Assembly (NCBI GenBank): GCA_964512985.1
Contig: CAZELI010000011.1
Span: 383-64,382 of the forward strand
Reading direction: 5' to 3'
Length of the DNA stretch: 64,000 bases
DNA from: an uncultured Gammaproteobacteria bacterium
GTDB lineage: Bacteria; Cyanobacteriota; Vampirovibrionia; LMEP-6097
Shown here: in pieces, positions 1,554 to 57,198 of the stretch
Layout: every line of letters starts with the position of its first letter
Numbering within the stretch: the stretch's first letter is position 1
Program-made: the position numbers and the translations under genes
Notes under the pieces: model-generated
The model's database searches: none
What the model was told of the DNA's origin: nothing
The model's input: only the letters and a program-made list of their open reading frames with translations

Positions 1554-1631
1554 ATTATACCCTAAATAAAGTATACTTTTATATATCCTTATAAAGGAAT
1601 TAGCGCTTTAAAGTATATAAAAGTATACTTT
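1554..1631. promoter_or_regulatory. hipBA promoter/operator region
   Basis: The minus-strand -10 TATAAT (1554-1559) lies 6 nt from the ATG at 1547. The perfect 12-bp palindrome AAAGTATACTTT occurs at 1568-1579 and 1620-1631. The inverted repeat ATCCTT-N3-AAGGAA is at 1585-1599. Confidence 0.6.
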
Positions 1632-2592
1632 ATTCCTCTGGACTAAAGCCCATATACTTAGCAACTGGCCAGTAAACGCAATAGAAACTTCCTAATAGAG
1701 CAAAGATCACTAGTAGAGTGAAGACCATGTTCAATGCAGTAAAGATACTGATCAGAAGTGCTTGCTCTCCGATGTTGAAGCGTAAGATTGGAATAGCGCG
1801 GTAGACGGAGAGACCGAAATTCAGGATAGATTTAATAATCGTCATCCTGAGGGAGGGCGAAGCCCGACCGTCAGGATCCACTGCTAATGGCTGGATTGCG
1901 ACGTCGTCCGTCTTCACTTCGTTTCGACGGACTCCTCGCAATGACGATACTGAGTCTTCATGCGACGCCTGACTTCCTCTTTGCACAGCGGGCTCTAGCT
2001 TCATATCCTGATTCACGTAATAATCAATGAGCAATACTGTAAACATCGCAATCATTGCCAGAGGCCAGATTAGCCAAGTCGCTACTGGAAAGGATTTGAT
2101 AAACATCATCTGAAAATCAACGGGTAATTTAAAACTACCATTAACTCCAAGAAAAAATTCTATAACAGAACTCACACGTGAAAAATTCAAAAAGAAAAAC
2201 TCTTCATGACTAGTAAAAAATCCCCAGGCTAATGAGAAGAAATAAATAAAATCCTTAACCCTGTCACTGACCCGATCTAACCAAGCACCAAGCTTAGAGA
2301 ACTGTTGGCGATAGCGCGCCAGTTGCCCGTCCATGCAATCTACAGCAAATGAAAGCTGCACCAAAGCCGCTCCTATAATGAGGTGTAAATGATCACCACA
2401 AGCAAAGCACCATGCCGCAATCATCCCAATTAAAAAAGAATTAACGGTAATAAGGTTTGGACTAATCCAGGATATATCACAAATCGGCTCAAGCAAACGA
2501 TTAGCCAGAGGACCAGAGAAAATACTTGCCCACCAGCCGTCTTTTTGTTTAATAGCAGAACGAAGTTTTAATTTTTGAGTAGGAGATAGCAC
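1630..2592 (-). CDS. CDP-alcohol phosphatidyltransferase family protein with an in-frame repeat-element insertion
   Basis: Carries the motif DCMDGQLARYRQQFSKLGAWLDRVSDRVKD (D-x2-DG-x2-AR...G-x3-D-x3-D) and is polytopic. About aa 216-251 (SSLRGVRRNEVKTDDVAIQPLAVDPDGRASPSLRMT) are encoded by the repeat element at 1840-1946. Confidence 0.8.
   Translation of the reverse strand: MLSPTQKLKLRSAIKQKDGWWASIFSGPLANRLLEPICDISWISPNLITVNSFLIGMIAAWCFACGDHLHLIIGAALVQLSFAVDCMDGQLARYRQQFSKLGAWLDRVSDRVKDFIYFFSLAWGFFTSHEEFFFLNFSRVSSVIEFFLGVNGSFKLPVDFQMMFIKSFPVATWLIWPLAMIAMFTVLLIDYYVNQDMKLEPAVQRGSQASHEDSVSSLRGVRRNEVKTDDVAIQPLAVDPDGRASPSLRMTIIKSILNFGLSVYRAIPILRFNIGEQALLISIFTALNMVFTLLVIFALLGSFYCVYWPVAKYMGFSPEE
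1840..1946. mobile_element. REPIN/MITE-like doublet located inside a CDS
   Basis: Module CGTCATCCTGAGGGAGGGCGAAGCCCGACCGTCAGGATCCAC (1840-1881) plus inverted module CTGGATTGCGACGTC...TCCTCGCAATGACG (1891-1946). Same family as 4094-4204, 26095-26203, 54399-54485 and 57086-57198. Confidence 0.85.
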
Positions 2593-4093: not shown

Positions 4094-4204
4094 CGTCATC
4101 CTGAGGGAGGGCGAAGCCCGACCGTAAGGATCCACTTTTATTAATAGATTATTCGTAGCAGTGGATCCTTACGTCGCAACCTACGGTTGCTCCTCAGGAT
4201 GACG
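4094..4204. mobile_element. REPIN/MITE-like palindromic doublet
   Basis: Terminal inverted repeats CGTCATCCTGAGG / CCTCAGGATGACG. Inner GGATCCAC...GTGGATCC with a 25-nt spacer. Sits 13 nt after the thrB stop. It is the reverse-orientation counterpart of 57086-57198. Confidence 0.9.
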
Positions 4205-6672: not shown

Positions 6673-6694
6673 CCTAGAGGCAATGGTCAACCGA

Positions 6695-6825
6695 TACCCG
6701 TAATCCGTCATTGCAACGTAGACACTAGTGCAGACCGACACCCGTTAGCCGTCATCGCGAGGAGTCCGTCGTAACGCAGTGAAGACGGACTCCTCGCAAT
6801 GACGGACTACGGGTGCTGGTTTACT
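6695..6825. mobile_element. Composite or degenerate cluster of the same repeat family (TTGCGAGG subtype)
   Basis: Long hairpin CGTCATCGCGAGGAGTCCGTC-loop-GACGGACTCCTCGCAATGACG (6750-6814). It is nested in the outer inverted repeat ACCCGTAATCCGTCATTGC (about 6697-6715) / GCAATGACGGACTACGGGT (about 6805-6823). Lies between the convergent dusB and methyltransferase genes. Confidence 0.75.
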
Positions 6826-9291: not shown

Positions 9292-9673
9292 TCTCTGGGT
9301 GTTGATCAAGGGATTTGTACTTTTAGCCAGGAATCTGCGATTCCGGGTCGAGGGTTAGCAAGGAAGGTCTAAACGACCTTCCTTGCACTCTTAAATGAAA
9401 CCAGAGATTCAACCACAAAATAAATTCTGACAAATGTCTAATGTCCAGCTACGACCTAAAATCTTCATGACAACATTCTCTAAGGAGAAAATAACCGGCG
9501 ACATTACTTTCAGGAGCAGGCATTCGATCGCCACTAAGCCTAGAGGTCGTTAGCATAAATACATCCAGTAATATCACACAAGGCTCTGGTAGTTTCTTCT
9601 CCCTATCTAGTAATTTCCATATACACCATTTAGTTGATTTAACACTGATTAAGGAATTGGGAATTGAGTGGTT

Positions 9674-12196
9674 ATGAGAAGAATTATTAACCTTAGTATT
9701 GCTTTATTATTAGCTACGACGATAACGCAAACTTATGTCTCAGCCATTACCTTAGTACCTAATAAAACGAACTTTCGGTTCAATGGTTCAGCTAACTCTC
9801 TAAGCTTCAAGGTGAGCCTAAGTGACGATATCCCTTCCTTAACTGGCTCGGGGTTAATTAGCGCAAAGCTCAAACTCAATTCATCACTCTTCACTACCAA
9901 TCTTACTAACAATACTATCTCTATACCTTATACTGACGGTGTTATAGGTGAAAGCCCAGAGATCACTATTAGTCTCAAGAATCCAACTATCACTAAATCA
10001 TCCTCATCACCTTTTAGCGTTAAATTCTCTGGATCCCAACGCAAGAAATTGAAGTTAGCTAATTACTCTGACACTTTTAATATAGATGCTAGTCCTATAC
10101 AGGTCTCTGGTCGTGTAACGATCCCTGAAGATAGTGCTTTAAGCTTCAAAGCTAGAACAACTAAATTATTGAAAGCCCGCACTATTGCACCGTTTAATAC
10201 TGATAATCCAGATGGTGTCTTAGTGCAATTAATGCCTATTGATCCAGCTACTGGTGAGGCCAGTGGGGCAGCCATAGCAGAAGCTATAACAGATAGTGAC
10301 GGTAACTATAATCTTGAAATGCCTGTAGAAGCAGGATTTGGTACAGATTATGCTTTAGTAGTGGAAGGTGATGATGGTGAGAATATGCATGCACCATTAT
10401 TTGGTGATTCTGTAAACATTACACCTGCCACTGAAACTTTATTTCAATTAACTCAAGATGCTGTTCAAGATCCTACTAGTATTGGTTTAGGTGCTGACGA
10501 AGAAATATCATTTGAGAATTTTACTGATACGGAAGCTTTAGGTCTTAATAACCAGCTAGAAGAATTAACTCCTATCTACGAATCAACACTTTCTGCATCA
10601 ATACAGAGTTTAAAAGATACTTATGCAAGCTTCCTTAATAATATGCTTGGAGCCTCCGCCGACGATGATGCTAGTGGTATCTCTACAAATATTGGAGAAG
10701 TAGCTAAAGATATGGCGGGAGACTACCATGTAAGTTTCTTTGATACCTCTATTAGTTCGGAGCAAAGACTTATGATTTCAGTGGAATTAGCTGGAGCTAG
10801 AATGTCTAAACCAGATGAAGTCGGTGCACTTTCTGTGTATCCGTTCCCTTCATTCTCTAGTCAAGCATCTAGCCAAGTTGCTCGTAATGATAGAGGACCA
10901 GACCAGGGACAAGGACCAGACCAGGGACAAGGACCAGACCAGGGACAAGGACCAGACCAGGGACAAGGACCAGATCAAGGACAAGGACCAGACCAGGGAC
11001 AAGGACCAAGTGAAGGTGAACCGTCAGCATCAAGCGCCCGTGTCATCAAGCCTCTTGAGAATACTAGTTGCTATGACGTAGAAGCATACTCTGAAGCCGC
11101 ACACGAAGTAAGGGGTACTCAAGATGGTAGTTTCTACATGACAGTTGATGCTAATCGTATTATTAACTTTGCAGAACCCGCTTCAGAAGAGACTTATAGC
11201 ACTCCTGAAGGACAGCAAGGATCTTTTAGAAGACAACCTAGCGTTATGAATATGATACCTGTTGGTGATGGTATGTTTTTATCAAGTATGAGCTCAACTT
11301 CTAGTAACTTTATGGATGGTAGCTTACAATCAACTGAGTATGAAGCGGGCTTTGCCAGTATCATCAAGAAATCATCGCTAACAGCTTCAGATCTTACTGG
11401 TAATTATGGTATGGTTGGTCTTGGCTATAAAATAGGTGCAGAAGATTACGGTACGATTGCATTCATTGGAGATTTAAGCTTTAGTTCAAGTCAGGTGAAT
11501 TTTAATCTGAATATGAAGTCTATCAATGTATCAGCAGATAGTTGCGAAGCATCGTCTTTTACATTAACGGAAGAAAGTACCGAGGAGCTTGGTTCGGCCA
11601 GTCTTGAGTTTGACAACGGTAGGCTTAATGTTGAGTTAGAGGGAGAAGAGTCTAATTCAGAAACTTTATTTACTGGTTTTGCTAGACCTGACGCTAAAGT
11701 ATTGTCGTTAATATATGCTAGTGATAGTGGCGCACAGGGTTCACGTCAAGACCATGAAGGTCGTTCGAGAAACGTTATTTCAACTGCAGATAGGCAATTA
11801 ATGATTGGCGTCAAGAAGCCAACTACTTTACTTAATCTATCAGGTAAATCTTACAGAATCTTATCAATGAACTTTGGCTTTAACGAACAGGGTGGTAGGA
11901 CTATTAAACAAGGTGAACTTGGTACTTTAAGTTTTAGTGACGGCACACTCAGCGTTAGTGGTTTCTCTAGAGATGTATTCACTAAAGATTCAGCTGATAG
12001 TGAGAGTATAACTGCTTCCAATTCTGTAACGGTAGGCACTGCTATAAGTTACACACTTGATGCTCAGGGTAAGATTAATTTCACTCTTGGTAACGATCAG
12101 CTCACTGGTTATGTAGCTGATGATGCAAGCTTAATAGTCCTATCTTCAGATGAAGATTCTTCACTTGGTATCTATTTTGCAATATTAAATCAATAA
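9674..12196 (+). CDS. Large secreted protein with a GPDQGQ hexapeptide repeat tract
   Basis: Signal peptide MRRIINLSIALLLATTITQTYVSA. A CarboxypepD_reg-like stretch (VSGRVTIPED...DSDGNYNLEMP). The track start at 9668 is GTG; ATG at 9674 preceded by AAGGAA is more likely. Confidence 0.6.
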   Translation: MRRIINLSIALLLATTITQTYVSAITLVPNKTNFRFNGSANSLSFKVSLSDDIPSLTGSGLISAKLKLNSSLFTTNLTNNTISIPYTDGVIGESPEITISLKNPTITKSSSSPFSVKFSGSQRKKLKLANYSDTFNIDASPIQVSGRVTIPEDSALSFKARTTKLLKARTIAPFNTDNPDGVLVQLMPIDPATGEASGAAIAEAITDSDGNYNLEMPVEAGFGTDYALVVEGDDGENMHAPLFGDSVNITPATETLFQLTQDAVQDPTSIGLGADEEISFENFTDTEALGLNNQLEELTPIYESTLSASIQSLKDTYASFLNNMLGASADDDASGISTNIGEVAKDMAGDYHVSFFDTSISSEQRLMISVELAGARMSKPDEVGALSVYPFPSFSSQASSQVARNDRGPDQGQGPDQGQGPDQGQGPDQGQGPDQGQGPDQGQGPSEGEPSASSARVIKPLENTSCYDVEAYSEAAHEVRGTQDGSFYMTVDANRIINFAEPASEETYSTPEGQQGSFRRQPSVMNMIPVGDGMFLSSMSSTSSNFMDGSLQSTEYEAGFASIIKKSSLTASDLTGNYGMVGLGYKIGAEDYGTIAFIGDLSFSSSQVNFNLNMKSINVSADSCEASSFTLTEESTEELGSASLEFDNGRLNVELEGEESNSETLFTGFARPDAKVLSLIYASDSGAQGSRQDHEGRSRNVISTADRQLMIGVKKPTTLLNLSGKSYRILSMNFGFNEQGGRTIKQGELGTLSFSDGTLSVSGFSRDVFTKDSADSESITASNSVTVGTAISYTLDAQGKINFTLGNDQLTGYVADDASLIVLSSDEDSSLGIYFAILNQ
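10895..11020 (+). repeat. 18-bp coding tandem repeat (GGACCAGACCAGGGACAA), six copies plus one degenerate
   Basis: Five copies are identical, one has 2 substitutions (10967-10984), and a degenerate seventh sits at 11003-11020. Encodes (GPDQGQ)6-GPSEGE. Confidence 0.9.
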
Positions 12197-17833: not shown

Positions 17834-19114
17834 TTATAGTTCTATTTTGTTCAGCAGAAAATAATAAGCTGGAATGAATCTTATTCTTTTACCATCAATT
17901 ATTTCTTCAGTGAACTTGGATCTGGTTATAATTACACCGCCTGTCAAACCATACGCTTGACTAGCTTCCAAAATTCCACCCACCTCTCTATCATAAAGTT
18001 CTTCATCTTCTAAATTAGAGTCCGTAACATTGATCACTGTCACAGGATTAGCACCTTCTACTAGAACAAAATCTAATTCAAAGTTATTTTGGTGGTAATA
18101 AATATTTTTATAGCCACGTCTTCTAAGCTCTATATAGATAGCATTTTCTAGAAGTTTACCAGAATCTAAGGAATGATAAAAAGCATTAGCTTGTCTCAAA
18201 CCCGTATCAATACAGTAAACCTTTTGAGGATTTCTTGCTTGCACTTTAAGATTGCGGTCATATTTCTTTACAAAGAACAGTAAAAATGCCATTTCGCAAT
18301 AATAAGCATAATCTTGTGCCGTGACTACATCTAGACCAAAAGCCTTTTTGATACTAGTAAAACTGTGCTTTGAACTAATATTGCTAAGCAAATATTGAAT
18401 CATTTTAATTAAAGATCCCACATCTCTAATCTGAAATCGCTGAACCAAATCTTTATAGACAATATCATTCAAATACTCTCTCGCTAATAAAGTTTGCGTA
18501 TCATGACCTTTCTGCAAAACTTTCTTTGGAAAACCACCGGTTTGTAGATATTTATCCAAAGCTTTTAGATAGTCGTCATCTTTCTTACAAGTTTTCTTAG
18601 TAAAAAATAAAAATTCTTTAAATGAAAGTGGCCAAATATCAGTCTCAATACATCTTCCAGTCAAAGAAGTTGCAATCTCTGAACTTAGCATCTTAGCTGA
18701 GCTACCAGTTACAATCAAAAAATAACTTTGTGTATCAATTATTTTTCTAGCGTAACGTTCCCAATATGGAATATTATGAACTTCATCCAGAATTAATATC
18801 TCAGGTTTTTTACCATAAATTTTCTTATAAAGCTGTGGCAATGTTTCTAAAAGCATTACATTATTATTTTCAATAAAATAAGGATCTTCAAAATTTATAT
18901 AACAAATCTCTTTAAATTTAGTTTTAGCATTTAATATTGCAATTGAAGTTTTACCACAACGTCTTACTCCTATATAAGCTGCTGCTAAAGATTTATCAAA
19001 TTTACTAGGAACATAACTATCTCGTGCAATAGAATTTTCATCTCGTAACCAATCATTCCAGAATTTGACTATATCCAGTAGGTATATATTTTCCATATGA
19101 TCTGCTTCTTGCAT
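17834..19114 (-). CDS. AAA-ATPase (AAA_14/DUF4143-like), copy 1
   Basis: Walker A GVRRCGKTS and Walker B LILDEVH. The C-terminal ELDFVLVEG...INVT looks like a degenerate nuclease-like motif. Start placed at MQEADHMENIY because TATAAT (19121-19126) lies 6 nt upstream; the track start at 19159 falls inside the repeats. Confidence 0.7.
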   Translation of the reverse strand: MQEADHMENIYLLDIVKFWNDWLRDENSIARDSYVPSKFDKSLAAAYIGVRRCGKTSIAILNAKTKFKEICYINFEDPYFIENNNVMLLETLPQLYKKIYGKKPEILILDEVHNIPYWERYARKIIDTQSYFLIVTGSSAKMLSSEIATSLTGRCIETDIWPLSFKEFLFFTKKTCKKDDDYLKALDKYLQTGGFPKKVLQKGHDTQTLLAREYLNDIVYKDLVQRFQIRDVGSLIKMIQYLLSNISSKHSFTSIKKAFGLDVVTAQDYAYYCEMAFLLFFVKKYDRNLKVQARNPQKVYCIDTGLRQANAFYHSLDSGKLLENAIYIELRRRGYKNIYYHQNNFELDFVLVEGANPVTVINVTDSNLEDEELYDREVGGILEASQAYGLTGGVIITRSKFTEEIIDGKRIRFIPAYYFLLNKIEL

Positions 19115-19117
19115 TTG

Positions 19118-19187
19118 TTGATTATAATCAATATACCATAGTTTGTTGATTATAATCAATATTATAAGGTTTATTGACTATAATCGA
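19118..19187. promoter_or_regulatory. Three 28-bp-spaced copies of a 14-bp palindrome containing TATAAT
   Basis: TTGATTATAATCAA at 19118-19131 and 19146-19159 (both perfect), and TTGACTATAATCGA at 19174-19187. Confidence 0.7.
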
Positions 19188-19252
19188 CAAAATCCACAAA
19201 GGCTAAGTCTACCTTAGTACACTATATGCTATTACCATTTAATCCAATTGAC

Positions 19253-20527: not shown

Positions 20528-21319
20528 CTATATATTTATATTCGACTGGATCACGACGTCGCGCCTACGGCGCTCCTCGTGATGACGAAAATTATTATTA
20601 ATATACTTCCCAAAAACCAAAATCGCTGGAGACTGTATCCCACTATTAATCATATCTTGGGCTAAATTTCCCAAAGTACTAACAACAATTTTCTCATCAT
20701 CGAGAGTGCCATTATGAATAGCAATCACTGGAAGGTTTATATCAAGATACTGTTTTAAGCCATCAATGATTTTTACAACAGTACTAAGCCCCATATAGAC
20801 TACGACCGTCGCGCCAGTACCGAGAATCCTTGCCCAGTTCGAGATCTTCTCATCATTAGGTTGATGTCCAGTAACCAAAGTCACTGAATCACTACAATCT
20901 CTAAGAGTCAGTGCTATACCGCGCGCTACGGGTATAGCAAGACCACTGGTTAAACCAGGTATCACTCTATAGTCATAGCCATGCTTCTTAGCTACTTCTA
21001 ACTCTTCTACACCTCTAGCGAAGATAAAAGGATCTCCACCTTTAAGCCTGAGAACATGCTTGTTTAATCTAAGCTGCTCTAATATAAGTGCATTAATTTC
21101 TTCTTGGCTTATGGATTGATGTCCTTTACGCTTACCGACAAAAATCAACTCTGGAAGTTTTTCTAAACCTTGAAAAGCAAGCTGGAATATTTGTTGATTA
21201 ACTAAACTATCATAGAGAATGATATCCGCTCTCTGAAGCTCTTTAAGAGCTTTAATAGTGATCAATTCAGGATCACCAGGTCCAGCTCCGACAAGACTAA
21301 GTAAGGCAGTTCTCCCCAT
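20528..21319 (-). CDS. cobA: Uroporphyrinogen-III C-methyltransferase (SUMT)
   Basis: GAGPGDPELITIKALKELQRADIILYD. The last approximately 14 codons (HEERRRRDVVIQ...) are encoded by a solo repeat module. Confidence 0.85.
   Translation of the reverse strand: MGRTALLSLVGAGPGDPELITIKALKELQRADIILYDSLVNQQIFQLAFQGLEKLPELIFVGKRKGHQSISQEEINALILEQLRLNKHVLRLKGGDPFIFARGVEELEVAKKHGYDYRVIPGLTSGLAIPVARGIALTLRDCSDSVTLVTGHQPNDEKISNWARILGTGATVVVYMGLSTVVKIIDGLKQYLDINLPVIAIHNGTLDDEKIVVSTLGNLAQDMINSGIQSPAILVFGKYINNNFRHHEERRRRDVVIQSNINI
20545..20587. repeat. Solo (singleton) hairpin module of the repeat family
   Basis: CTGGATCACGACGTCGCGCCTACGGCGCTCCTCGTGATGACG. Stems ATCACGA/TCGTGAT and GCGCC/GGCGC. Confidence 0.8.
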
Positions 21320-26094: not shown

Positions 26095-26203
26095 CGTCAT
26101 CCTGAGGAGGAGCCGAAGGCGACGACGTCAGGATCCACTACTAAGAAACATCATGAATAGTGGATCCTGACGTCGCAACCTACGGTTGCTCCTCAGGATG
26201 ACG
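26095..26203. mobile_element. REPIN/MITE-like palindromic doublet
   Basis: CGTCATCCTGAGGAGGAGCCGAAGGCGACGACGTCAGGATCCAC, a 21-nt spacer, then GTGGATCCTGACGTCGCAACCTACGGTTGCTCCTCAGGATGACG. Ends 6 nt from the cysN stop. A 12-nt fragment CGTCATCCTAAG is at 26055-26066. Confidence 0.9.
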
Positions 26204-34222: not shown

Positions 34223-35635
34223 TTAGCTCAGTTGCTTAATTAACCTAGGTATCTCAGCTATAGCATAAAACGGAACTGATAAAACATTGTTATCGAATTC
34301 TAATTTCTTCTGACAAATTCTTATACCAAAAGGTATTTTATATTCTTCTAATAAAAGATGAAGGCTTTTAAGTCGACCTGTTTTCCCTGATTTAACTTCT
34401 ATAGGCCAGATCCGTCCTTTATAAGCTATAAGATAGTCTATCTCAGCTGAGCTATTTTTTGCTTCACGTTCCCAATAATAAAGCTTAGGCTCTTCATAAT
34501 AAGGTTTAAGAGATAAAAGTTCTTGTCCAACGAATTGCTCAGTGATTGCTCCTTGAGCCAAAGAGTGAAAACTCTCGCTATTTAATATCTCATTAATTAT
34601 TTCACTATCACTTCCTAATAATTTACAAGCAAGACCAACATCTAAAAAAAGAGTCTTAAAATGTTTTTCTGAAGAGTTCGCTTCTAATGGCAAACCTGCA
34701 GCACTAGCTTTACGAATCTTCAGTAGTACACCAACATCAACTAAGAGTTCATATGCTTTTTTTATTTCCTGTGAATTTAATTCTTTATCTATTTTAGAAT
34801 ATTTAAATTTCTCACCAATTTGCTTCACCGAATTAATAAAAACAGACTCTAAATATTTATGCATAGCCAAATTGGAATATTTACCAAAATCTTTTTTATA
34901 AGAATATAGAATCTTACTTAATTCCTTATCGATAGCTTCTGATCTCTCACCAAGTTCTTTTTCTTTCAGAAAATATTGATTTAATACAGCTGGCATACCA
35001 CCTAAATAGAAATACTTCTTCACTTCATCCAATAATTTATTATGGCTAAAATCATCCAATGGTTTATTTAGATCCATTAACTTGATTTCGTTAACTATAT
35101 CTTTGGAGCCATTATATCTTTCGATTAGAAATTCATAGAAAGTTAATGGTCCAAGGAAAAGGAAATCAATTCTTCCAACTGGTATAGAAATTTCACCGGA
35201 ATTAAGCAAGAACTCCAACAATGAACCAGTTGCAATTATATGCAAGCCTGGATTCTTCTCGAAAAAATACCGCATCGCAATTATCGCCTCTGGGCAATCT
35301 TGCACTTCATCTAAAAAAACTAAAGTTTTTTGATTAATAAGTTTTTTACCAAATTCTTGAAAAATTTTATTACCAATTTTTTGGGGATCAGGATCAGAGA
35401 AAATATTTTTGTATTCAAAATTAAATTCAAAATTAATATAAATATATTCATCAAAATTTTCTATCGCAAACTTCTCAATAACATAAGTTTTCCCAACCTG
35501 CCTTGCTCCTCTTAATAAAACAGGATTAGGTTTTTCTGCCCGTCTCCACTTCATCAATTCTTCTTCTATAAATCTATACATATCCTTGTTATTATACCCT
35601 TTACTTGAAAACAACCCCATATTTTCAAGTATCAT
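34223..35635 (-). CDS. AAA-ATPase with C-terminal PD-(D/E)xK-like motif (AAA_14/DUF4143-like), copy 2
   Basis: Walker A GARQVGKTY, Walker B VFLDEVQ, C-terminal AEIDYLIAYKGRIWPIEVKSGK. Confidence 0.7.
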   Translation of the reverse strand: MILENMGLFSSKGYNNKDMYRFIEEELMKWRRAEKPNPVLLRGARQVGKTYVIEKFAIENFDEYIYINFEFNFEYKNIFSDPDPQKIGNKIFQEFGKKLINQKTLVFLDEVQDCPEAIIAMRYFFEKNPGLHIIATGSLLEFLLNSGEISIPVGRIDFLFLGPLTFYEFLIERYNGSKDIVNEIKLMDLNKPLDDFSHNKLLDEVKKYFYLGGMPAVLNQYFLKEKELGERSEAIDKELSKILYSYKKDFGKYSNLAMHKYLESVFINSVKQIGEKFKYSKIDKELNSQEIKKAYELLVDVGVLLKIRKASAAGLPLEANSSEKHFKTLFLDVGLACKLLGSDSEIINEILNSESFHSLAQGAITEQFVGQELLSLKPYYEEPKLYYWEREAKNSSAEIDYLIAYKGRIWPIEVKSGKTGRLKSLHLLLEEYKIPFGIRICQKKLEFDNNVLSVPFYAIAEIPRLIKQLS

Positions 35636-51573: not shown

Positions 51574-52920
51574 TTAACCAGTCCACTCTCGAGTAAAAGT
51601 ACAAGCTTTAGCAAGATAAATTGGCAATTTACAAACTTTACGCTCACTATTATAACTAAAATTATTAGCACTAAAAATTATTTTATAGGGAGAGTCATAT
51701 TTCTTAGCAAACACATCAATGCTTCTTGCTTTAGTATTAAAACCAGACTTTACCTCTATTGGAATTTGCTTGCCTGTTATCGTTCTAATGAATTCAACTT
51801 CAGACTTATTTTCTTCCCATGCATATAATTGATCATTTCGACCTAACTCTTGAGAGAATTCTTGAGCTATAAAATTCTCTGCAATATAACCCTTATAAGT
51901 TCCATAGTTATAATCCATCATAGTGATGGGATCAAGATTACCCAAAGCACCAAGTATCCCCACATCATAGAGAAAGAGCTTGAAACGATTCTCTTCTGTG
52001 TAAGCCTTAATAGGTTGCTCACCATGATTAGCAATTAAAACTTTGATTATCAAATTACTAGCTCTAAGCCAATCAATAGCACCACTGAGTTGATCATAGC
52101 CTTTAACTTTAGGAACTACATTCTTGAAAGTAAATTTAGGAGCATTTCCGTCTAGTCTCCGAGCCAACTGTTCTGGAATATTAGAGAACACTCTTTCTAT
52201 ATGCATAGCATTGACTGAGCCACAGTGTTTAGCCATATCTGCCATATAAACATTAATTATCTCAGATTGTTTTTCTCTGATAGTTGTTAAAGCATCAATC
52301 TGATTAGCTTTGAGTTGATTATAAGTTGAGATGACCTCAGGTAAACCTCCAATGACAAGGTATTGCTTCCACAAATCAAAAAGTTCTTTATGCATAAATT
52401 CAGGAATACGCTCTCCCCACTGCCAGGCATTAATAAATTCATATTTCTCATTTTCATCTAGACCAAGTAAAAATTCTGTAAATGTCATAGGAAACATATT
52501 GATCAAATCAACCTTACCAACAGGGAAAGAAGCTTCTCCATATTTAACTCCTAACAACGAACCCGCTGAAGCAAGTGCAAGTTCAGGCATATCCTCACAA
52601 AAATATTTCAAACTTGTGATTGCTTTAGGGCAAGTTTGAATTTCATCAAAAATCAATAAATCCGTTTTGATATTAACTTTGGTTTTTAGCTTACGCTCAA
52701 GTTCTTGTATAATTCTTAAAGGATCTAAATCATAGTCAAAAATTTCGCACAGACTGATGTTTTTCTCGAAATTCACATAGTGATAATTTTGAAAGAATTC
52801 TTCCCCACAATACTTAAGCGCATAAGTTTTACCTACTTGCCTCGCTCCCAAAACTATTAACGGCTTACGCTTAGGCTTAAGGCCCCAAGTTTTGATTTGT
52901 TCATAAATCAACCTACGCAT
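51574..52920 (-). CDS. AAA-ATPase with C-terminal PD-(D/E)xK-like motif (AAA_14/DUF4143-like), copy 3
   Basis: Walker A GARQVGKTY, Walker B LIFDEIQ, C-terminal SEVEFIRTITGKQIPIEVKSGF. TATAAT (52929-52934) lies 8 nt before the ATG. Confidence 0.7.
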   Translation of the reverse strand: MRRLIYEQIKTWGLKPKRKPLIVLGARQVGKTYALKYCGEEFFQNYHYVNFEKNISLCEIFDYDLDPLRIIQELERKLKTKVNIKTDLLIFDEIQTCPKAITSLKYFCEDMPELALASAGSLLGVKYGEASFPVGKVDLINMFPMTFTEFLLGLDENEKYEFINAWQWGERIPEFMHKELFDLWKQYLVIGGLPEVISTYNQLKANQIDALTTIREKQSEIINVYMADMAKHCGSVNAMHIERVFSNIPEQLARRLDGNAPKFTFKNVVPKVKGYDQLSGAIDWLRASNLIIKVLIANHGEQPIKAYTEENRFKLFLYDVGILGALGNLDPITMMDYNYGTYKGYIAENFIAQEFSQELGRNDQLYAWEENKSEVEFIRTITGKQIPIEVKSGFNTKARSIDVFAKKYDSPYKIIFSANNFSYNSERKVCKLPIYLAKACTFTREWTG

Positions 52921-54322: not shown

Positions 54323-54398
54323 AATCTTCCCATAATTTATATTTTTTCACTCTCTAGTAATTAGGCAATACTGTTATCTTGCGAAGAATTCGGGTCTT

Positions 54399-54485
54399 CG
54401 TCATCACGAGGAGCACCGCAGGTGCGACGTAGTGATCCAGTCTGGATTGCGACGTCGCTCACTTTGTGAGCTCCTCGCAATGACG
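54399..54485. mobile_element. REPIN/MITE-like doublet with a 1-nt spacer
   Basis: CGTCATCACGAGGAGCACCGCAGGTGCGACGTAGTGATCCAG, then T, then CTGGATTGCGACGTCGCTCACTTTGTGAGCTCCTCGCAATGACG. Confidence 0.9.
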
Positions 54486-54531
54486 GCATTTTTTTTACCT
54501 TACTCGTCCCAATACAGTATAATTTTTCGAT

Positions 54532-57085: not shown

Positions 57086-57198
57086 CGTCATCCTGAGGAG
57101 CAACCGTAGGTTGCGACGTAAGGATCCACTATTTCGAGATAAATTTCTAATTAAGAGTGGATCCTTACGGTCGGGCTTCGCCCTCCCTCAGGATGACG
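57086..57198. mobile_element. REPIN/MITE-like palindromic doublet
   Basis: CGTCATCCTGAGGAGCAACCGTAGGTTGCGACGTAAGGATCCAC, a 27-nt spacer, then GTGGATCCTTACGGTCGGGCTTCGCCCTCCCTCAGGATGACG. Has the same two modules as 4094-4204 in opposite order. Confidence 0.9.

What the first reader, a model, noticed from the sequence alone, without database searches (positions are those of the whole stretch)
54399..54485. Compensatory (covarying) stems in the repeat modules indicate a selected secondary structure
Aligning modules in the CGTCAT-first orientation shows two nested stems whose sequences differ between copies but stay complementary.

Outer stem variants:
- ATCCTGA / TCAGGAT (1844-1850 with 1871-1877; also the 26095 copy).
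- ATCACGA / TCGTGAT (20545 copy).
- ATTGCGA / TCGCAAT (54442 and 1891 copies).

Inner hairpin variants:
- GGGC-GAA-GCCC
- GCAACC-GTA-GGTTGC
- GCC-GAA-GGC
- GCGCC-TAC-GGCGC
- GCACC-GCA-GGTGC
- GCTCAC-TTT-GTGAGC
- GTCCGTC-N13-GACGGAC

The invariant single-stranded parts are CGTCAT, GAGGA and GACGT. Paired changes of this kind are not expected from decay of a single master copy. They argue that a hairpin with conserved unpaired bases is what gets recognised, as ssDNA by a transposase or as RNA.
Basis: seen in the sequence. Interest (0 to 1): 0.65.

Follow-up and report, generated by a model that had tools for sequence, protein, structure and literature searches.

The report
CGTC-tagged palindromic repeats with covarying stems
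The repeats are a long, two-stem form of the already described "CGTC-tagged" REP palindromic repeats of bacteria: their stems really do change in matched pairs, so a hairpin is being conserved, but what copies these elements is still unknown.

Summary
The window has 11 full modules of about 40 nt plus one derivative. Each reads CGTC-AT-NNN-GA-GGA-[hairpin]-GACG-T-N-NNN-AT-CCA. Most sit as inverted pairs with the CGTC ends pointing outward.

The same module, with the same unpaired bases, occurs in more than 112 stretches of public genomes from over ten phyla. In 113 distinct copies found through the unpaired anchors alone:
- The three variable outer-stem pairs are all Watson-Crick in 105 (33 when halves are shuffled).
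- The inner stem has at least 3 bp in 97 (21 when shuffled).
- There are 12 outer-stem and 31 inner-stem variants.

Loops are strand-asymmetric: 85 G-N-A triloops on the CGTC strand and none on the other. These match the very stable DNA mini-hairpin C-GNA-G, which favours single-stranded DNA over RNA.

Modules are identical between copies while spacers diverge. A related genome has an empty site. One pair lies in frame inside a gene.

The elements fit the CGTC-tagged REP superfamily (Di Nocera 2013; Rickettsia RPE-4/6/7) in head, AT-first stem, CCA tail, dimer habit, intragenic copies and lack of a linked transposase. They do not fit the simple 8-9 bp stem of its four described families. I found no mobilising enzyme. 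Verdict: real and selected, but a new variant of a known kind.

The parts
54399..54441 (+). Long-form CGTC module, left half of the pair in the finding. Head CGTC 54399-54402. Outer stem 54403-54407 with 54432-54436, plus A54409-T54430, with a G54408.A54431 mismatch. Internal loop GGA 54410-54412 and GACG 54426-54429. Inner stem 54413-54417 with 54421-54425. Loop GCA 54418-54420. Tail CCA 54437-54439.
   Evidence: Sequence. CM hit of 54.1 bits, E 4.5e-17. The DNA fold gives exactly this structure at -7.5 kcal/mol.
54443..54485 (-). Long-form CGTC module, right half of the pair, in inverted orientation. Head CGTC at 54482-54485 when read on the - strand. Outer stem 54475-54481 with 54446-54452, perfect, ATTGCGA/TCGCAAT. 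Inner stem 54466-54471 with 54457-54462. Loop 54463-54465 (AAA on the - strand). Both stems differ from those of its partner module.
   Evidence: Sequence. CM hit of 54.4 bits. DNA fold -12.8 kcal/mol, z -5.4.
1840..1880 (+). Module of type X (GAgGGAG-GGC-GAA-GCC-CGACcGT), half of a pair that lies in frame inside ORF 1630-2592(-).
   Evidence: CM hit of 37.2 bits. Translation. 41/41 bases are identical to the copy in the related genome L195.
1892..1946 (-). Long-form module with a long inner hairpin (GTCCGTC-N13-GACGGAC), partner of 1840-1880. It is absent from the orthologous site in the related genome.
   Evidence: CM hit of 51.1 bits. Alignment A3.
4094..4134 (+). Module of type X, left half of the pair 4094-4204, between the GHMP-kinase and S41-peptidase genes.
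   Evidence: CM hit of 37.4 bits. In the related genome the same intergenic gap is 21 nt and has no repeat.
4162..4204 (-). Long-form module (CCTGA outer stem, GCAACC-GTA-GGTTGC inner hairpin), right half of the pair 4094-4204.
   Evidence: CM hit of 47.9 bits. Alignment A4.
6750..6804 (.). Derivative: CGTCATCGCGAGGAGTCCGTC, a loop, then its reverse complement. This is what remains if a homodimer loses everything between its two inner hairpins. It is embedded in a longer palindrome at 6734-6820, and a partial copy of the left arm lies at 6686-6714.
   Evidence: repeats I8, I10, I16; weak CM hits on both strands.
20547..20587 (-). Single long-form module (CACGA outer stem, GCGCC-GTA-GGCGC inner hairpin). 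It overlaps the last ~20 codons of ORF 20528-21319(-).
   Evidence: Best CM hit, 54.9 bits. DNA fold -13.0 kcal/mol, z -4.3. Translation.
26095..26137 (+). Long-form module with an extended inner region (GGAG-CC-GAA-GG-CGAC), left half of the pair 26095-26203.
   Evidence: CM hit of 39.9 bits. Sequence.
26161..26203 (-). Long-form module, right half of the pair 26095-26203.
   Evidence: CM hit of 47.7 bits.
57086..57128 (+). Long-form module, identical to 4162-4204. Left half of the pair 57086-57198, which is the 4094-4204 pair in the opposite orientation.
   Evidence: CM hit of 47.9 bits. Modules are 84/84 identical while the spacer is 17/29 identical.
57158..57198 (-). Module of type X, identical to 4094-4134. 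Right half of the pair 57086-57198.
   Evidence: CM hit of 37.4 bits..

Best explanation
These are small non-coding palindromic repeats of the CGTC-tagged REP type. They are a long-form family in which the usual single stem is split into two stems by a fixed asymmetric internal loop.

The unit is an unpaired CGTC head, an outer stem that always starts A-T, T-A, the loop bases GGA and GACG, an inner hairpin of free sequence and length, and a CCA tail. Units usually sit as inverted pairs with the heads pointing outward. That pair is the piece that is gained, lost and copied.

Shown here:
- Each unit folds on its own.
- Its stems covary while about 22 unpaired bases stay fixed across phyla.
- The loops are asymmetric in favour of the CGTC strand.
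- Modules stay identical while spacers and flanks diverge.
- Related genomes differ by presence or absence of a pair.

Inferred:
- The functional form is the CGTC strand as single-stranded DNA, for example during replication.
- A protein acting in trans reads the hairpin shape plus the fixed unpaired bases. It would cut or copy at the head, by analogy with RAYT/IS200-type tyrosine (HUH) enzymes acting on GTAG REPs.
- Only copies that keep the fold are propagated or homogenised, and this produces the compensatory pattern.

The enzyme is unidentified. The confidence of 0.6 is a composite. That these are CGTC-type REP elements with a selected fold is about 0.9. That they act as single-stranded DNA read by a transposase-like enzyme is about 0.5.
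For: **Family and copies.**
- 8 exact anchor matches in the window against 0 expected; 11 modules by CM.
- More than 112 stretches in public genomes, against roughly 1-2 expected by my own estimate.
- 301 generic modules in the pattern-retrieved loci plus window, against 3 in 467 kb of unrelated loci.

**Structure.**
- Outer stem fully paired in 105/113 copies; shuffled mean 33, maximum 45.
- Inner stem of at least 3 bp in 97/113; shuffled mean 21, maximum 34.
- 12 outer-stem and 31 inner-stem variants.
- Searches give the same answer with two other methods.
- The matched G/C insertion in type X keeps the internal-loop pair.

**Each unit folds alone.** In 78 distinct outward-facing pairs, the outer stem is complementary within the unit in 148/156 units. 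Partners share the same stem in only 35/78 pairs.

**Strand and DNA.**
- G-N-A triloops number 46 (long forms) plus 39 (short forms), against 0 T-N-C.
- The closing pair is C-G in 58/63 triloops.
- C-GNA-G / GCGNAGC is an extraordinarily stable DNA mini-hairpin, and its RNA version is much weaker (PMC13037366 and PMC3201870).
- The CGTC strand folds better than its complement in 4 of 5 modules.

**Constraint and mobility.**
- Two pairs in the window have modules 84/84 identical, spacers 17/29 identical and unrelated flanks (p = 1e-8).
- Module X is 41/41 identical between two species, against 31/42 in the adjoining coding DNA.
- The GHMP-kinase/S41 gap is 21 nt in the related genome. Here it is 145 nt and holds the 111-nt pair (4094-4204).
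- An extra module is present at 1892-1946.

**Literature.** The superfamily, its dimer habit, intragenic copies and missing transposase are all described (PMC3733652).
Against: - No candidate enzyme was found. There is no Y1/HUH or other transposase domain in about 50 window ORFs. No shared gene lies near the modules in 112 loci. A from-memory IS608 TnpA query found nothing.
- No target-site duplication or clear target is visible. There is only a pyrimidine before CGTC in 84% of modules.
- Single-stranded DNA versus RNA is inferred from loop chemistry, not measured.
- G.T and A.C mismatches in the outer stem are equally rare (3 each), so wobble pairing gives no strand signal.
- The empty site could be a deletion rather than an insertion.
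- High identity of modules could come from gene conversion between copies rather than from selection by a protein.
Confidence: 0.6

Rival explanations
1. The modules work as RNA. They are transcribed with neighbouring genes, and the hairpins act as stabilisers, RNase targets or terminators. Selection on RNA folding then gives the covariation.
For: Several copies lie just after or at the 3' end of genes: 4094-4204, 20547-20587, 26095-26203 and 57086-57198. The published survey of this superfamily argues that many REPs are transcribed. The hairpins are predicted to be stable.
Against: - The pair in the finding lies between divergently transcribed genes.
- One pair is translated in frame.
- Pairs occur in either orientation: 4094-4204 and 57086-57198 are the same pair flipped.
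- Loops are G-N-A triloops, not the GNRA or UNCG tetraloops typical of RNA, and the RNA mini-hairpin is much less stable than the DNA one.
- G.U is no more frequent than A.C in the outer stem.
- There is no Rfam match, even at E <= 5.
Confidence: 0.2
2. No selection on structure. DNA palindromes correct themselves by intrastrand template switching during replication, so matched changes appear in one step and only mimic compensatory evolution.
For: Established knowledge: quasi-palindrome mutagenesis converts imperfect palindromes to perfect ones. The derivative at 6750-6804 is a fully symmetrised version of a module.
Against: The asymmetric internal loop (GGA opposite GACG), the unpaired head and tail, and the purine-purine mismatch at outer-stem position 6 are kept, not symmetrised. 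At that position 97 of 113 copies have G.G or G.A. The copies span more than ten phyla. Loop bases are strand-asymmetric at 85 to 0, which self-templating does not predict.
Confidence: 0.08
3. The functional unit is the whole inverted pair folding as one long hairpin or cruciform, as proposed for REPINs. Units would not fold separately. The fixed blocks would be conserved because they pair with the partner.
For: The 95-nt pair 54395-54489 folds as single-stranded DNA into a structure where CGTCAT/ATGACG, GAGGAG/CTCCTC, GACGT/ACGTC and ATCCAG/CTGGAT pair between units. The energy is -28.5 kcal/mol, z -5.9. Outward-facing pairs predominate, 85 against 27 inward.
Against: The outer-stem bases covary within a unit (148/156 units), but partners share them in only 35/78 pairs. 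In the pair of the finding, both stems differ between partners. Single units exist and keep the fold (20547-20587). The two folds may alternate; they are not mutually exclusive.
Confidence: 0.1
4. The modules are sites read in single-stranded DNA by a universal host enzyme of replication, such as a primase-type single-strand initiation signal or a topoisomerase. No transposase would be involved, and the repeats would spread by recombination.
For: - Mini-hairpins of the CCGAAGG/GCGNAGC type are parts of known single-strand initiation signals, including the phage G4 origin and RSF1010 ssiA bound by RepB' primase.
- No dedicated transposase has been found for the superfamily.
- The unpaired bases are identical across phyla.
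Against: There is no direct evidence. Distribution among genomes is patchy, which is unexpected for a general replication signal. Sharp element ends and copy-like spread of whole pairs look like mobile DNA.
Confidence: 0.07

Closest known systems
CGTC-tagged REP superfamily, families CGTC-1 to CGTC-4 (Di Nocera, De Gregorio and Rocco 2013, PMC3733652)
   Same: - Unpaired CGTC head.
- Stem starting with complementary A-T, T-A.
- Three-base CCA tail.
- Mostly inverted dimers, often of unlike partners.
- Copies inside genes.
- Spread over several phyla, with many in Alphaproteobacteria, Rickettsiales and Micavibrio.
- No linked transposase gene.
   Different: The described families have one stem of 8-9 bp and a loop of 4-5 nt, about 27-30 nt in all.

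The modules here are 37-55 nt. They have two stems separated by a fixed GGA/GACG internal loop, a usually mismatched sixth stem position, and an inner hairpin of free length with mostly 3-nt G-N-A loops.

The paper's figure with the consensus sequences could not be read, so identity with one of its subtypes is not fully excluded. Compensatory change and loop asymmetry are not discussed there.
[quoted passage not shown]
   Same: They share the ATGAC motif, which is the reverse of the GTCAT at the head. They insert in frame into exposed loops of proteins. Orthologues carry different element types at the same locus (PMC3767692). All of this is seen at ORF 1630-2592. RPE-4 and RPE-6 are assigned to CGTC-4 and CGTC-1.
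   Different: RPEs are defined in Rickettsia. This window is from an uncultured bacterium whose nearest genome record is labelled Gammaproteobacteria.
GTAG-type REPs and REPINs with their RAYT transposases
   Same: Short imperfect palindromes with a fixed unpaired tetranucleotide 5' of the stem. They are arranged as inverted doublets, are intergenic, have many copies, and show stem variants within a family.
   Different: The head is CGTC, not GTAG. No RAYT gene was found in the window or in the loci examined, and none is known for the CGTC superfamily.
Subterminal hairpins of IS200/IS605 insertion sequences
   Same: Imperfect hairpins read as single-stranded DNA. Irregularities in the stem and short unpaired guide bases next to it are what the enzyme reads (established knowledge of IS608 TnpA).
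   Different: No transposase gene lies between or near the hairpins. The elements here are about 40-110 nt with no coding capacity of their own.

Membership tests
CGTC-tagged REP superfamily | Unpaired CGTC (or TGTC/CCTC) tetranucleotide at one end | tested here: met
   All 11 window modules start with CGTC outside the stem.
CGTC-tagged REP superfamily | Stem whose first two positions are complementary A-T and T-A | tested here: met
   AT...AT is present in all window modules and in 113/113 anchored copies. The search pattern partly imposed this. The covariance model also finds window copies that the exact pattern missed (type X), and these have it too.
CGTC-tagged REP superfamily | Short unpaired tail fitting CCA | tested here: met
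   CCA follows the stem in every window module.
CGTC-tagged REP superfamily | Single stem of 8-9 bp and a loop of 4-5 nt (Table 1 of PMC3733652) | tested here: not met
   There are two stems (5+1 pairs, and 3-7 pairs) separated by a GGA/GACG internal loop. Loops are 3 nt in 63/113 copies. Length is 37-55 nt. This places the modules outside families CGTC-1 to CGTC-4 as described in the text, but not outside the superfamily.
CGTC-tagged REP superfamily | Mostly inverted dimers, frequently heterodimers | tested here: met
   The window has 5 pairs and 1 single. Across the loci there are 85 outward-facing pairs, 27 inward and 13 tandem. Partners share the outer stem in 35/78 pairs. The paper's HH/TT naming could not be mapped to orientation from the text.
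CGTC-tagged REP superfamily | No transposase gene associated with the repeats | tested here: met
   No transposase domain in the window. No recurrent neighbouring gene in 112 loci. The whole genome was not available.
Rickettsia RPE-4/6/7 | In-frame insertion in protein loops, with different element types at the same site in orthologues, and the ATGAC motif | tested here: met
   A 36-residue insert lies in ORF 1630-2592. Seven orthologues carry different module-derived peptides or none at that loop.
Rickettsia RPE-4/6/7 | Host is a Rickettsia; sequence matches the RPE profile | not tested
The nearest genome record is an uncultured 'Gammaproteobacteria' MAG.
REPIN/RAYT system (GTAG REPs) | GTAG head 5' of the palindrome | tested here: not met
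   The head is CGTC in all copies.
REPIN/RAYT system (GTAG REPs) | A RAYT (Y1 HUH transposase) gene in the genome, flanked by the repeats | tested here: inconclusive
   None in the 64-kb window or in 112 loci of 8 kb. The rest of the genome could not be searched.
MITE | Terminal inverted repeats matching a parent insertion sequence, plus target-site duplication | tested here: inconclusive
   Pairs have inverted ends. No direct duplication is seen at 5 pairs, and flanks are unrelated. No parent IS is present. The one empty site is too diverged to place the junction to the base.
Any Rfam RNA family | Match to a curated covariance model | tested here: not met
   Only a tRNA reaches the gathering score in the window. 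The best hit on the pair is a chance hairpin match to a microRNA model, 20.7 bits against a gathering score of 64.

The most novel reading that the evidence does not exclude
The long-form module is a conserved single-stranded-DNA recognition motif. It consists of a C-GNA-G mini-hairpin, a fixed GGA/GACG internal loop, and the CGTC and CCA ends, kept base for base in more than ten phyla.

In this reading it is read by a widely shared host enzyme of replication or repair rather than by a dedicated transposase. That would explain why no transposase has ever been linked to CGTC repeats. It would also define a new way for small repeats to persist and spread.
Probability: 0.12. Interest if true: 0.7.

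Novelty: new variant of a known kind. Interest (0 to 1): 0.4.

Why it matters
CGTC-tagged repeats are common in many bacteria, including Rickettsia, where they sit inside proteins. Nobody knows what makes or moves them.

This work gives the open question a concrete handle. The handle is a two-stem form with about 22 fixed unpaired bases, a clear functional strand, and loops that point to single-stranded DNA. The exact oligonucleotide to use as bait for the unknown protein is now defined. Cultured hosts that carry the form are named: Tsuneonella, Inquilinus limosus, Rhodobium orientis and Roseiarcus.

For genome annotation, these modules break assemblies, create spurious or extended ORFs, and add peptide inserts to real proteins.

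Tried and rejected
- **Rfam.** Nothing at gathering score or at E <= 5.
- **Plasmid collection.** A distant BLAST of the pair found no match.
- **Literature search by sequence strings.** Only chance primer matches.
- **Metagenome scan with the neighbouring citrate synthase, looking for close relatives and empty sites.** The best identity was 69%, too distant to use. The empty site came instead from an orthologue of ORF 1630-2592.
- **Clustering of 2,928 ORFs from the window and 112 loci, looking for a shared neighbouring gene.** Only large housekeeping families recur: ABC ATPases, histidine kinases, sigma-54 activators, DEAD and UvrD helicases.
- **IS608 TnpA typed from memory as a phmmer query, plus a crude HUH motif scan.** No hits. 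This is a weak negative.
- **Pairing between the CGTC head and the internal GACG, and between the TCC tail and the internal GGA.** The bases are complementary but almost invariant, so covariation cannot test it.
- **Nested-insertion idea.** The inner GGA-hairpin-GACG is the reverse complement of a mini CGTC-hairpin-TCC element. I rejected this because the inner loops are G-N-A on the outer unit's CGTC strand, not on the opposite strand.
- **Hammerhead ribozyme.** CUGAGGAG...CGAC resembles CUGAUGAG...CGAAAC. I rejected this by inspection: CUGA lies in the variable stem, and the invariant A14 position is C.
- **Kink-turn.** Rejected by inspection. The loop is 3 nt opposite 4, not a 3-nt bulge next to tandem G.A pairs.
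- **Viral contigs.** One match in 2.9 million, so phages are not an obvious carrier.
- **Naming the organism through protein clusters.** No names were returned.
Full report

Yes. The stretch 54399-54485 holds two inverted modules:
- CGTCATCACGAGGAGCACCGCAGGTGCGACGTAGTGATCCA on the + strand.
- CGTCATTGCGAGGAGCTCACAAAGTGAGCGACGTCGCAATCCA on the - strand.

The anchor pattern CGTCAT-N3-GAGGAG-N8-30-GACGT-N4-ATCC occurs 8 times in the window, against 0.00 expected from shuffles.

A covariance model built from diverse copies finds 11 full modules:
- 1840-1880 (+), 1892-1946 (-)
- 4094-4134 (+), 4162-4204 (-)
- 20547-20587 (-)
- 26095-26137 (+), 26161-26203 (-)
- 54399-54439 (+), 54443-54485 (-)
- 57086-57128 (+), 57158-57198 (-)

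It also finds a derivative at 6750-6804. Ten of the 11 modules form five inverted pairs with the CGTC ends pointing outward.

**2. Anatomy**

Read from the CGTC end, a module has these parts in order:
- An unpaired head, CGTC.
- An outer stem, A-T, T-A, then three free pairs.
- A sixth position that is G opposite G, A or C.
- An A-T pair.
- The internal loop, GGA on the 5' side and GACG on the 3' side.
- An inner hairpin, closed by G-C, of free sequence and length.
- A tail, CCA.

Single-strand folding reproduces this structure. RNAalifold predicts it independently and adds a G-C pair inside the loop.

One module type (1840, 4094, 57158) has GAgGGAG...GACcGT. An extra G on one side is matched by an extra C on the other. 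This supports the G-C pair within the internal loop.

**3. Wider distribution and covariation**

By my own estimate only one or two would arise by chance.

The hosts include:
- Alphaproteobacteria: Tsuneonella, Erythrobacter, Inquilinus, Rhodobium, Roseiarcus, Micavibrio, Rickettsiales and Holosporaceae.
- Other groups: Burkholderiaceae, Coxiellaceae, Bdellovibrionales, Desulfovibrionaceae, Gastranaerophilales and Caenarcaniphilales, Babeliaceae, Patescibacteria, Bacteroidota, Firmicutes, Treponema, Opitutales, Dehalococcoidia and Acidimicrobiia.

The pattern fixes only the unpaired blocks, so pairing in the stems is an independent test. Results on 113 distinct copies:

| Measure | Observed | Shuffled halves (mean; maximum of 1000) |
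|---|---|---|
| Three free outer-stem pairs all Watson-Crick | 105 | 33; 45 |
| Inner stem of at least 3 bp from its closing pair | 97 | 21; 34 |

There are 12 outer-stem triplets and 31 inner-stem triplets.

On a 56-sequence alignment:
- 97.3% of cells pair, against 76.0% in shuffles.
- 110 cells have changes on both sides, against 31.8.
- None of 500 shuffles reaches either value.
- Sliding the partners by 1-3 columns drops pairing to 17-53%.

**4. Which strand, and DNA or RNA?**

The inner loops are strongly asymmetric. Of 63 three-base loops, 39 are G-N-A, and 58 are closed by C-G.

Over all long and short modules there are 46 + 39 G-N-A triloops. There are no T-N-C loops, which is what a G-N-A loop on the other strand would look like.

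C-GNA-G, as in GCGAAGC, is the classic extraordinarily stable DNA mini-hairpin. Its stability depends on the C-G closing pair, and the RNA versions are much less stable (PMC13037366, PMC3201870). RNA-typical GNRA tetraloops are rare here.

The CGTC strand folds better than its complement in four of five modules tested as DNA.

Wobble pairs give no extra signal. The outer stem has 3 G.T and 3 C.A.

I conclude that the CGTC strand is the functional one and that single-stranded DNA is more likely than RNA. This is an inference from loop chemistry, not a measurement.

**5. One unit or the whole pair?**

The 95-nt pair can also fold so that the fixed blocks of the two units pair with each other and the two inner hairpins stick out. 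That fold has -28.5 kcal/mol, z -5.9.

However, in 78 distinct outward-facing pairs, the outer stem is complementary within the unit in 148 of 156 units. The two partners share the same outer-stem triplet in only 35 of 78 pairs. In the pair of the finding, both stems differ between partners.

So the covariation belongs to the single unit. The inter-unit fold may be an alternative state.

**6. Constraint and mobility**

- **Same pair at two sites.** The pairs 4094-4204 and 57086-57198 are the same element in opposite orientation. The modules are 84/84 identical, the spacer is 17/29 identical, and the flanks are unrelated (p = 1e-8). The ends of the similarity are the CGTC heads.
- **A related, syntenic genome.** It is ERZ3430527 NODE_26, also found as GCA_964551135.1 and labelled uncultured Gammaproteobacteria. 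Its orthologue of ORF 1630-2592 is 77% identical by BLASTP and 84% in the alignment. Gene order matches window positions 1-8 kb.
- **Empty site.** Its gap between the GHMP-kinase and S41-peptidase genes is 21 nt. Here the gap is 145 nt and contains the 111-nt pair (4094-4204).
- **Intragenic site.** In the CDP-alcohol phosphatidyltransferase gene, the relative has only module X. It is 41/41 identical, against 31/42 in the adjoining coding DNA (p = 5e-4). The window has an additional module at 1892-1946.
- **Flanking bases.** The base before CGTC is a pyrimidine in 84% of 234 modules. The base after ATCCA is G in 53% and A in 2%.
- **Target-site duplication.** None is visible.

**7. Copies inside genes**

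The pair 1840-1946 is translated in frame as SSLRGVRRNEVKTDDVAIQPLAVDPDGRASPSLRMT. It lies in a loop of ORF 1630-2592(-), between conserved membrane segments.

Seven orthologues, 64-89% identical in the alignment, carry different module-derived peptides or none at this loop. Sense copies give SSLRG...RRGNP or RHPEE...RRKD. Antisense copies give ...SLRMT or ...LAMT.

Module 20547-20587 supplies the last ~20 codons of ORF 20528-21319(-).

**8. Search for a partner protein**

Pfam scans of about 50 window ORFs found metabolic and envelope genes and three AAA_14/DUF4143 ATPases. No transposase, HUH or recombinase domain turned up.

Clustering all ORFs of the window and 112 loci gave only large housekeeping families as recurrent neighbours. 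A from-memory IS608 TnpA query found nothing. The rest of the genome could not be searched.

**9. What is known**

Di Nocera, De Gregorio and Rocco (2013, PMC3733652) defined two superfamilies of REP-type palindromes, tagged by unpaired GTAG or CGTC.

CGTC repeats have these features:
- Stems that almost always begin with complementary A-T residues.
- A CCA tail.
- Mostly dimers, often of unlike units.
- Copies inside genes.
- Occurrence in five phyla, with most in Alphaproteobacteria; Micavibrio, Rickettsia, Wolbachia and Coxiella are among the hosts.
- Inclusion of Neisseria dRS3 and of Rickettsia RPE-4 and RPE-6.
- Unlike GTAG REPs, no association with any transposase gene.

Matsutani et al. 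(PMC3767692) described the ATGAC motif of RPE-4/6/7 and the puzzle that orthologues carry different RPE types at the same locus. That is exactly what I see at ORF 1630-2592. Later papers only cite this work.

The modules here meet every qualitative feature of the superfamily. They do not meet the one-stem geometry (8-9 bp, loop of 4-5 nt) given for families CGTC-1 to CGTC-4. The authors themselves note that forms with bulges may have escaped them.

Partner units in other genomes are often short forms, such as CGTCATTGCGAGC-GTA-GCGAAGCAATCCA. Simple perfect-stem forms with a TGTC head also occur. So the long form is one family in a continuum. I could not read the paper's Figure 2, so a match to one of its subtypes is not completely excluded.

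**10. Mechanism and rivals**

Best supported is a non-autonomous REP-type element. Its CGTC strand folds as single-stranded DNA, and a trans-acting protein reads its hairpin shape plus fixed unpaired bases. Copies that lose the fold are not propagated or homogenised. The protein is inferred by analogy with RAYT and IS200/IS605 enzymes and has not been found.

Rivals:
- **An RNA role.** Disfavoured by position between divergent genes, use in both orientations, in-frame copies and loop type.
- **Self-templated palindrome correction.** Disfavoured because the asymmetric loop, the mismatch and the loop bias persist across phyla.
- **The whole-pair hairpin as the only functional fold.** Disfavoured by within-unit covariation in unlike pairs.
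- **A universal replication enzyme reading a mini-hairpin signal.** This is speculative, but it is compatible with the missing transposase.

**11. Verdict**

The kind of element is already described, so a specialist would not be surprised by covarying REP stems.

The new details are:
- The two-stem long form with about 22 bases fixed across more than ten phyla.
- The 85-to-0 loop asymmetry pointing to DNA mini-hairpins on the CGTC strand.
- The demonstration that covariation is within units of unlike pairs.
- A filled/empty site pair.

Interest 0.4. Novelty: new variant of a known kind.

Noticed in passing
window 1630-2592 (-), insert at 1840-1946: A pair of modules is translated in frame as a 36-residue insert in a loop of a CDP-alcohol phosphatidyltransferase-family protein. 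Orthologues 64-89% identical in the alignment carry different module-derived peptides or none at the same loop. Rickettsia RPE-4/6/7 behave the same way.
   Followed up: yes
window 20528-21319 (-), module at 20547-20587: A single module provides the last ~20 codons (…RHHEERRRRDVVIQSNINI*) of an ORF next to sirohaem-synthase and sulfate-assimilation genes. The repeat probably extended or replaced the original C-terminus.
   Followed up: partly
window 6686-6820: An 87-nt palindrome (6734-6820) has as its core (6750-6804) the 5' half of a module joined to its own reverse complement. This looks like a deletion between the two inner hairpins of a homodimer. A partial copy of the left arm lies at 6686-6714.
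   Followed up: partly
window 10876-11037, inside ORF 9668-12196 (+): Seven tandem copies of an 18-nt unit (AGGACCAGACCAGGGACA) lie within an 842-residue ORF that has no Pfam match.
   Followed up: no
window 17834-19159 (-), 34223-35635 (-), 51574-52920 (-): Three genes for AAA_14 + DUF4143 ATPases sit in 64 kb. They are distant paralogues, 25-30% identical. Another lies at the edge of the syntenic locus L195. Their function is unknown, and no link to the repeats was seen.
   Followed up: partly
L114 2905-2932 (same sequence as window 57086 onward): An independent short-read assembly of the same organism ends inside a module. The repeats break assemblies.
   Followed up: no
window 19114-19191: An AT-rich palindrome (TTTGTTGATTATAATCAATAT...) unrelated to the CGTC modules lies between two genes on the - strand.
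   Followed up: no
L063 6639-7276 and L013 6489-6740: In some genomes the pairs form regular tandem arrays: 139-nt spacing in a Gammaproteobacteria MAG and about 107 nt in a Rickettsiales MAG. These clusters are unlike the dispersed pairs in the window.
   Followed up: no
loci L008, L031, L066, L083: Modules lie next to, or at the end of, AddA/UvrD-type helicase-nuclease genes in four unrelated genomes. This recalls the published remark that these repeats often touch replication and repair genes.
   Followed up: no
window as a whole: The taxonomic placement is unclear. The nearest genome record (GCA_964551135.1) is labelled uncultured Gammaproteobacteria. The best named homologue of one protein is from Candidatus Caenarcaniphilales at 60% identity. 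Caenarcaniphilales MAGs share the CCTGA/AGGAT outer-stem variant.
   Followed up: partly
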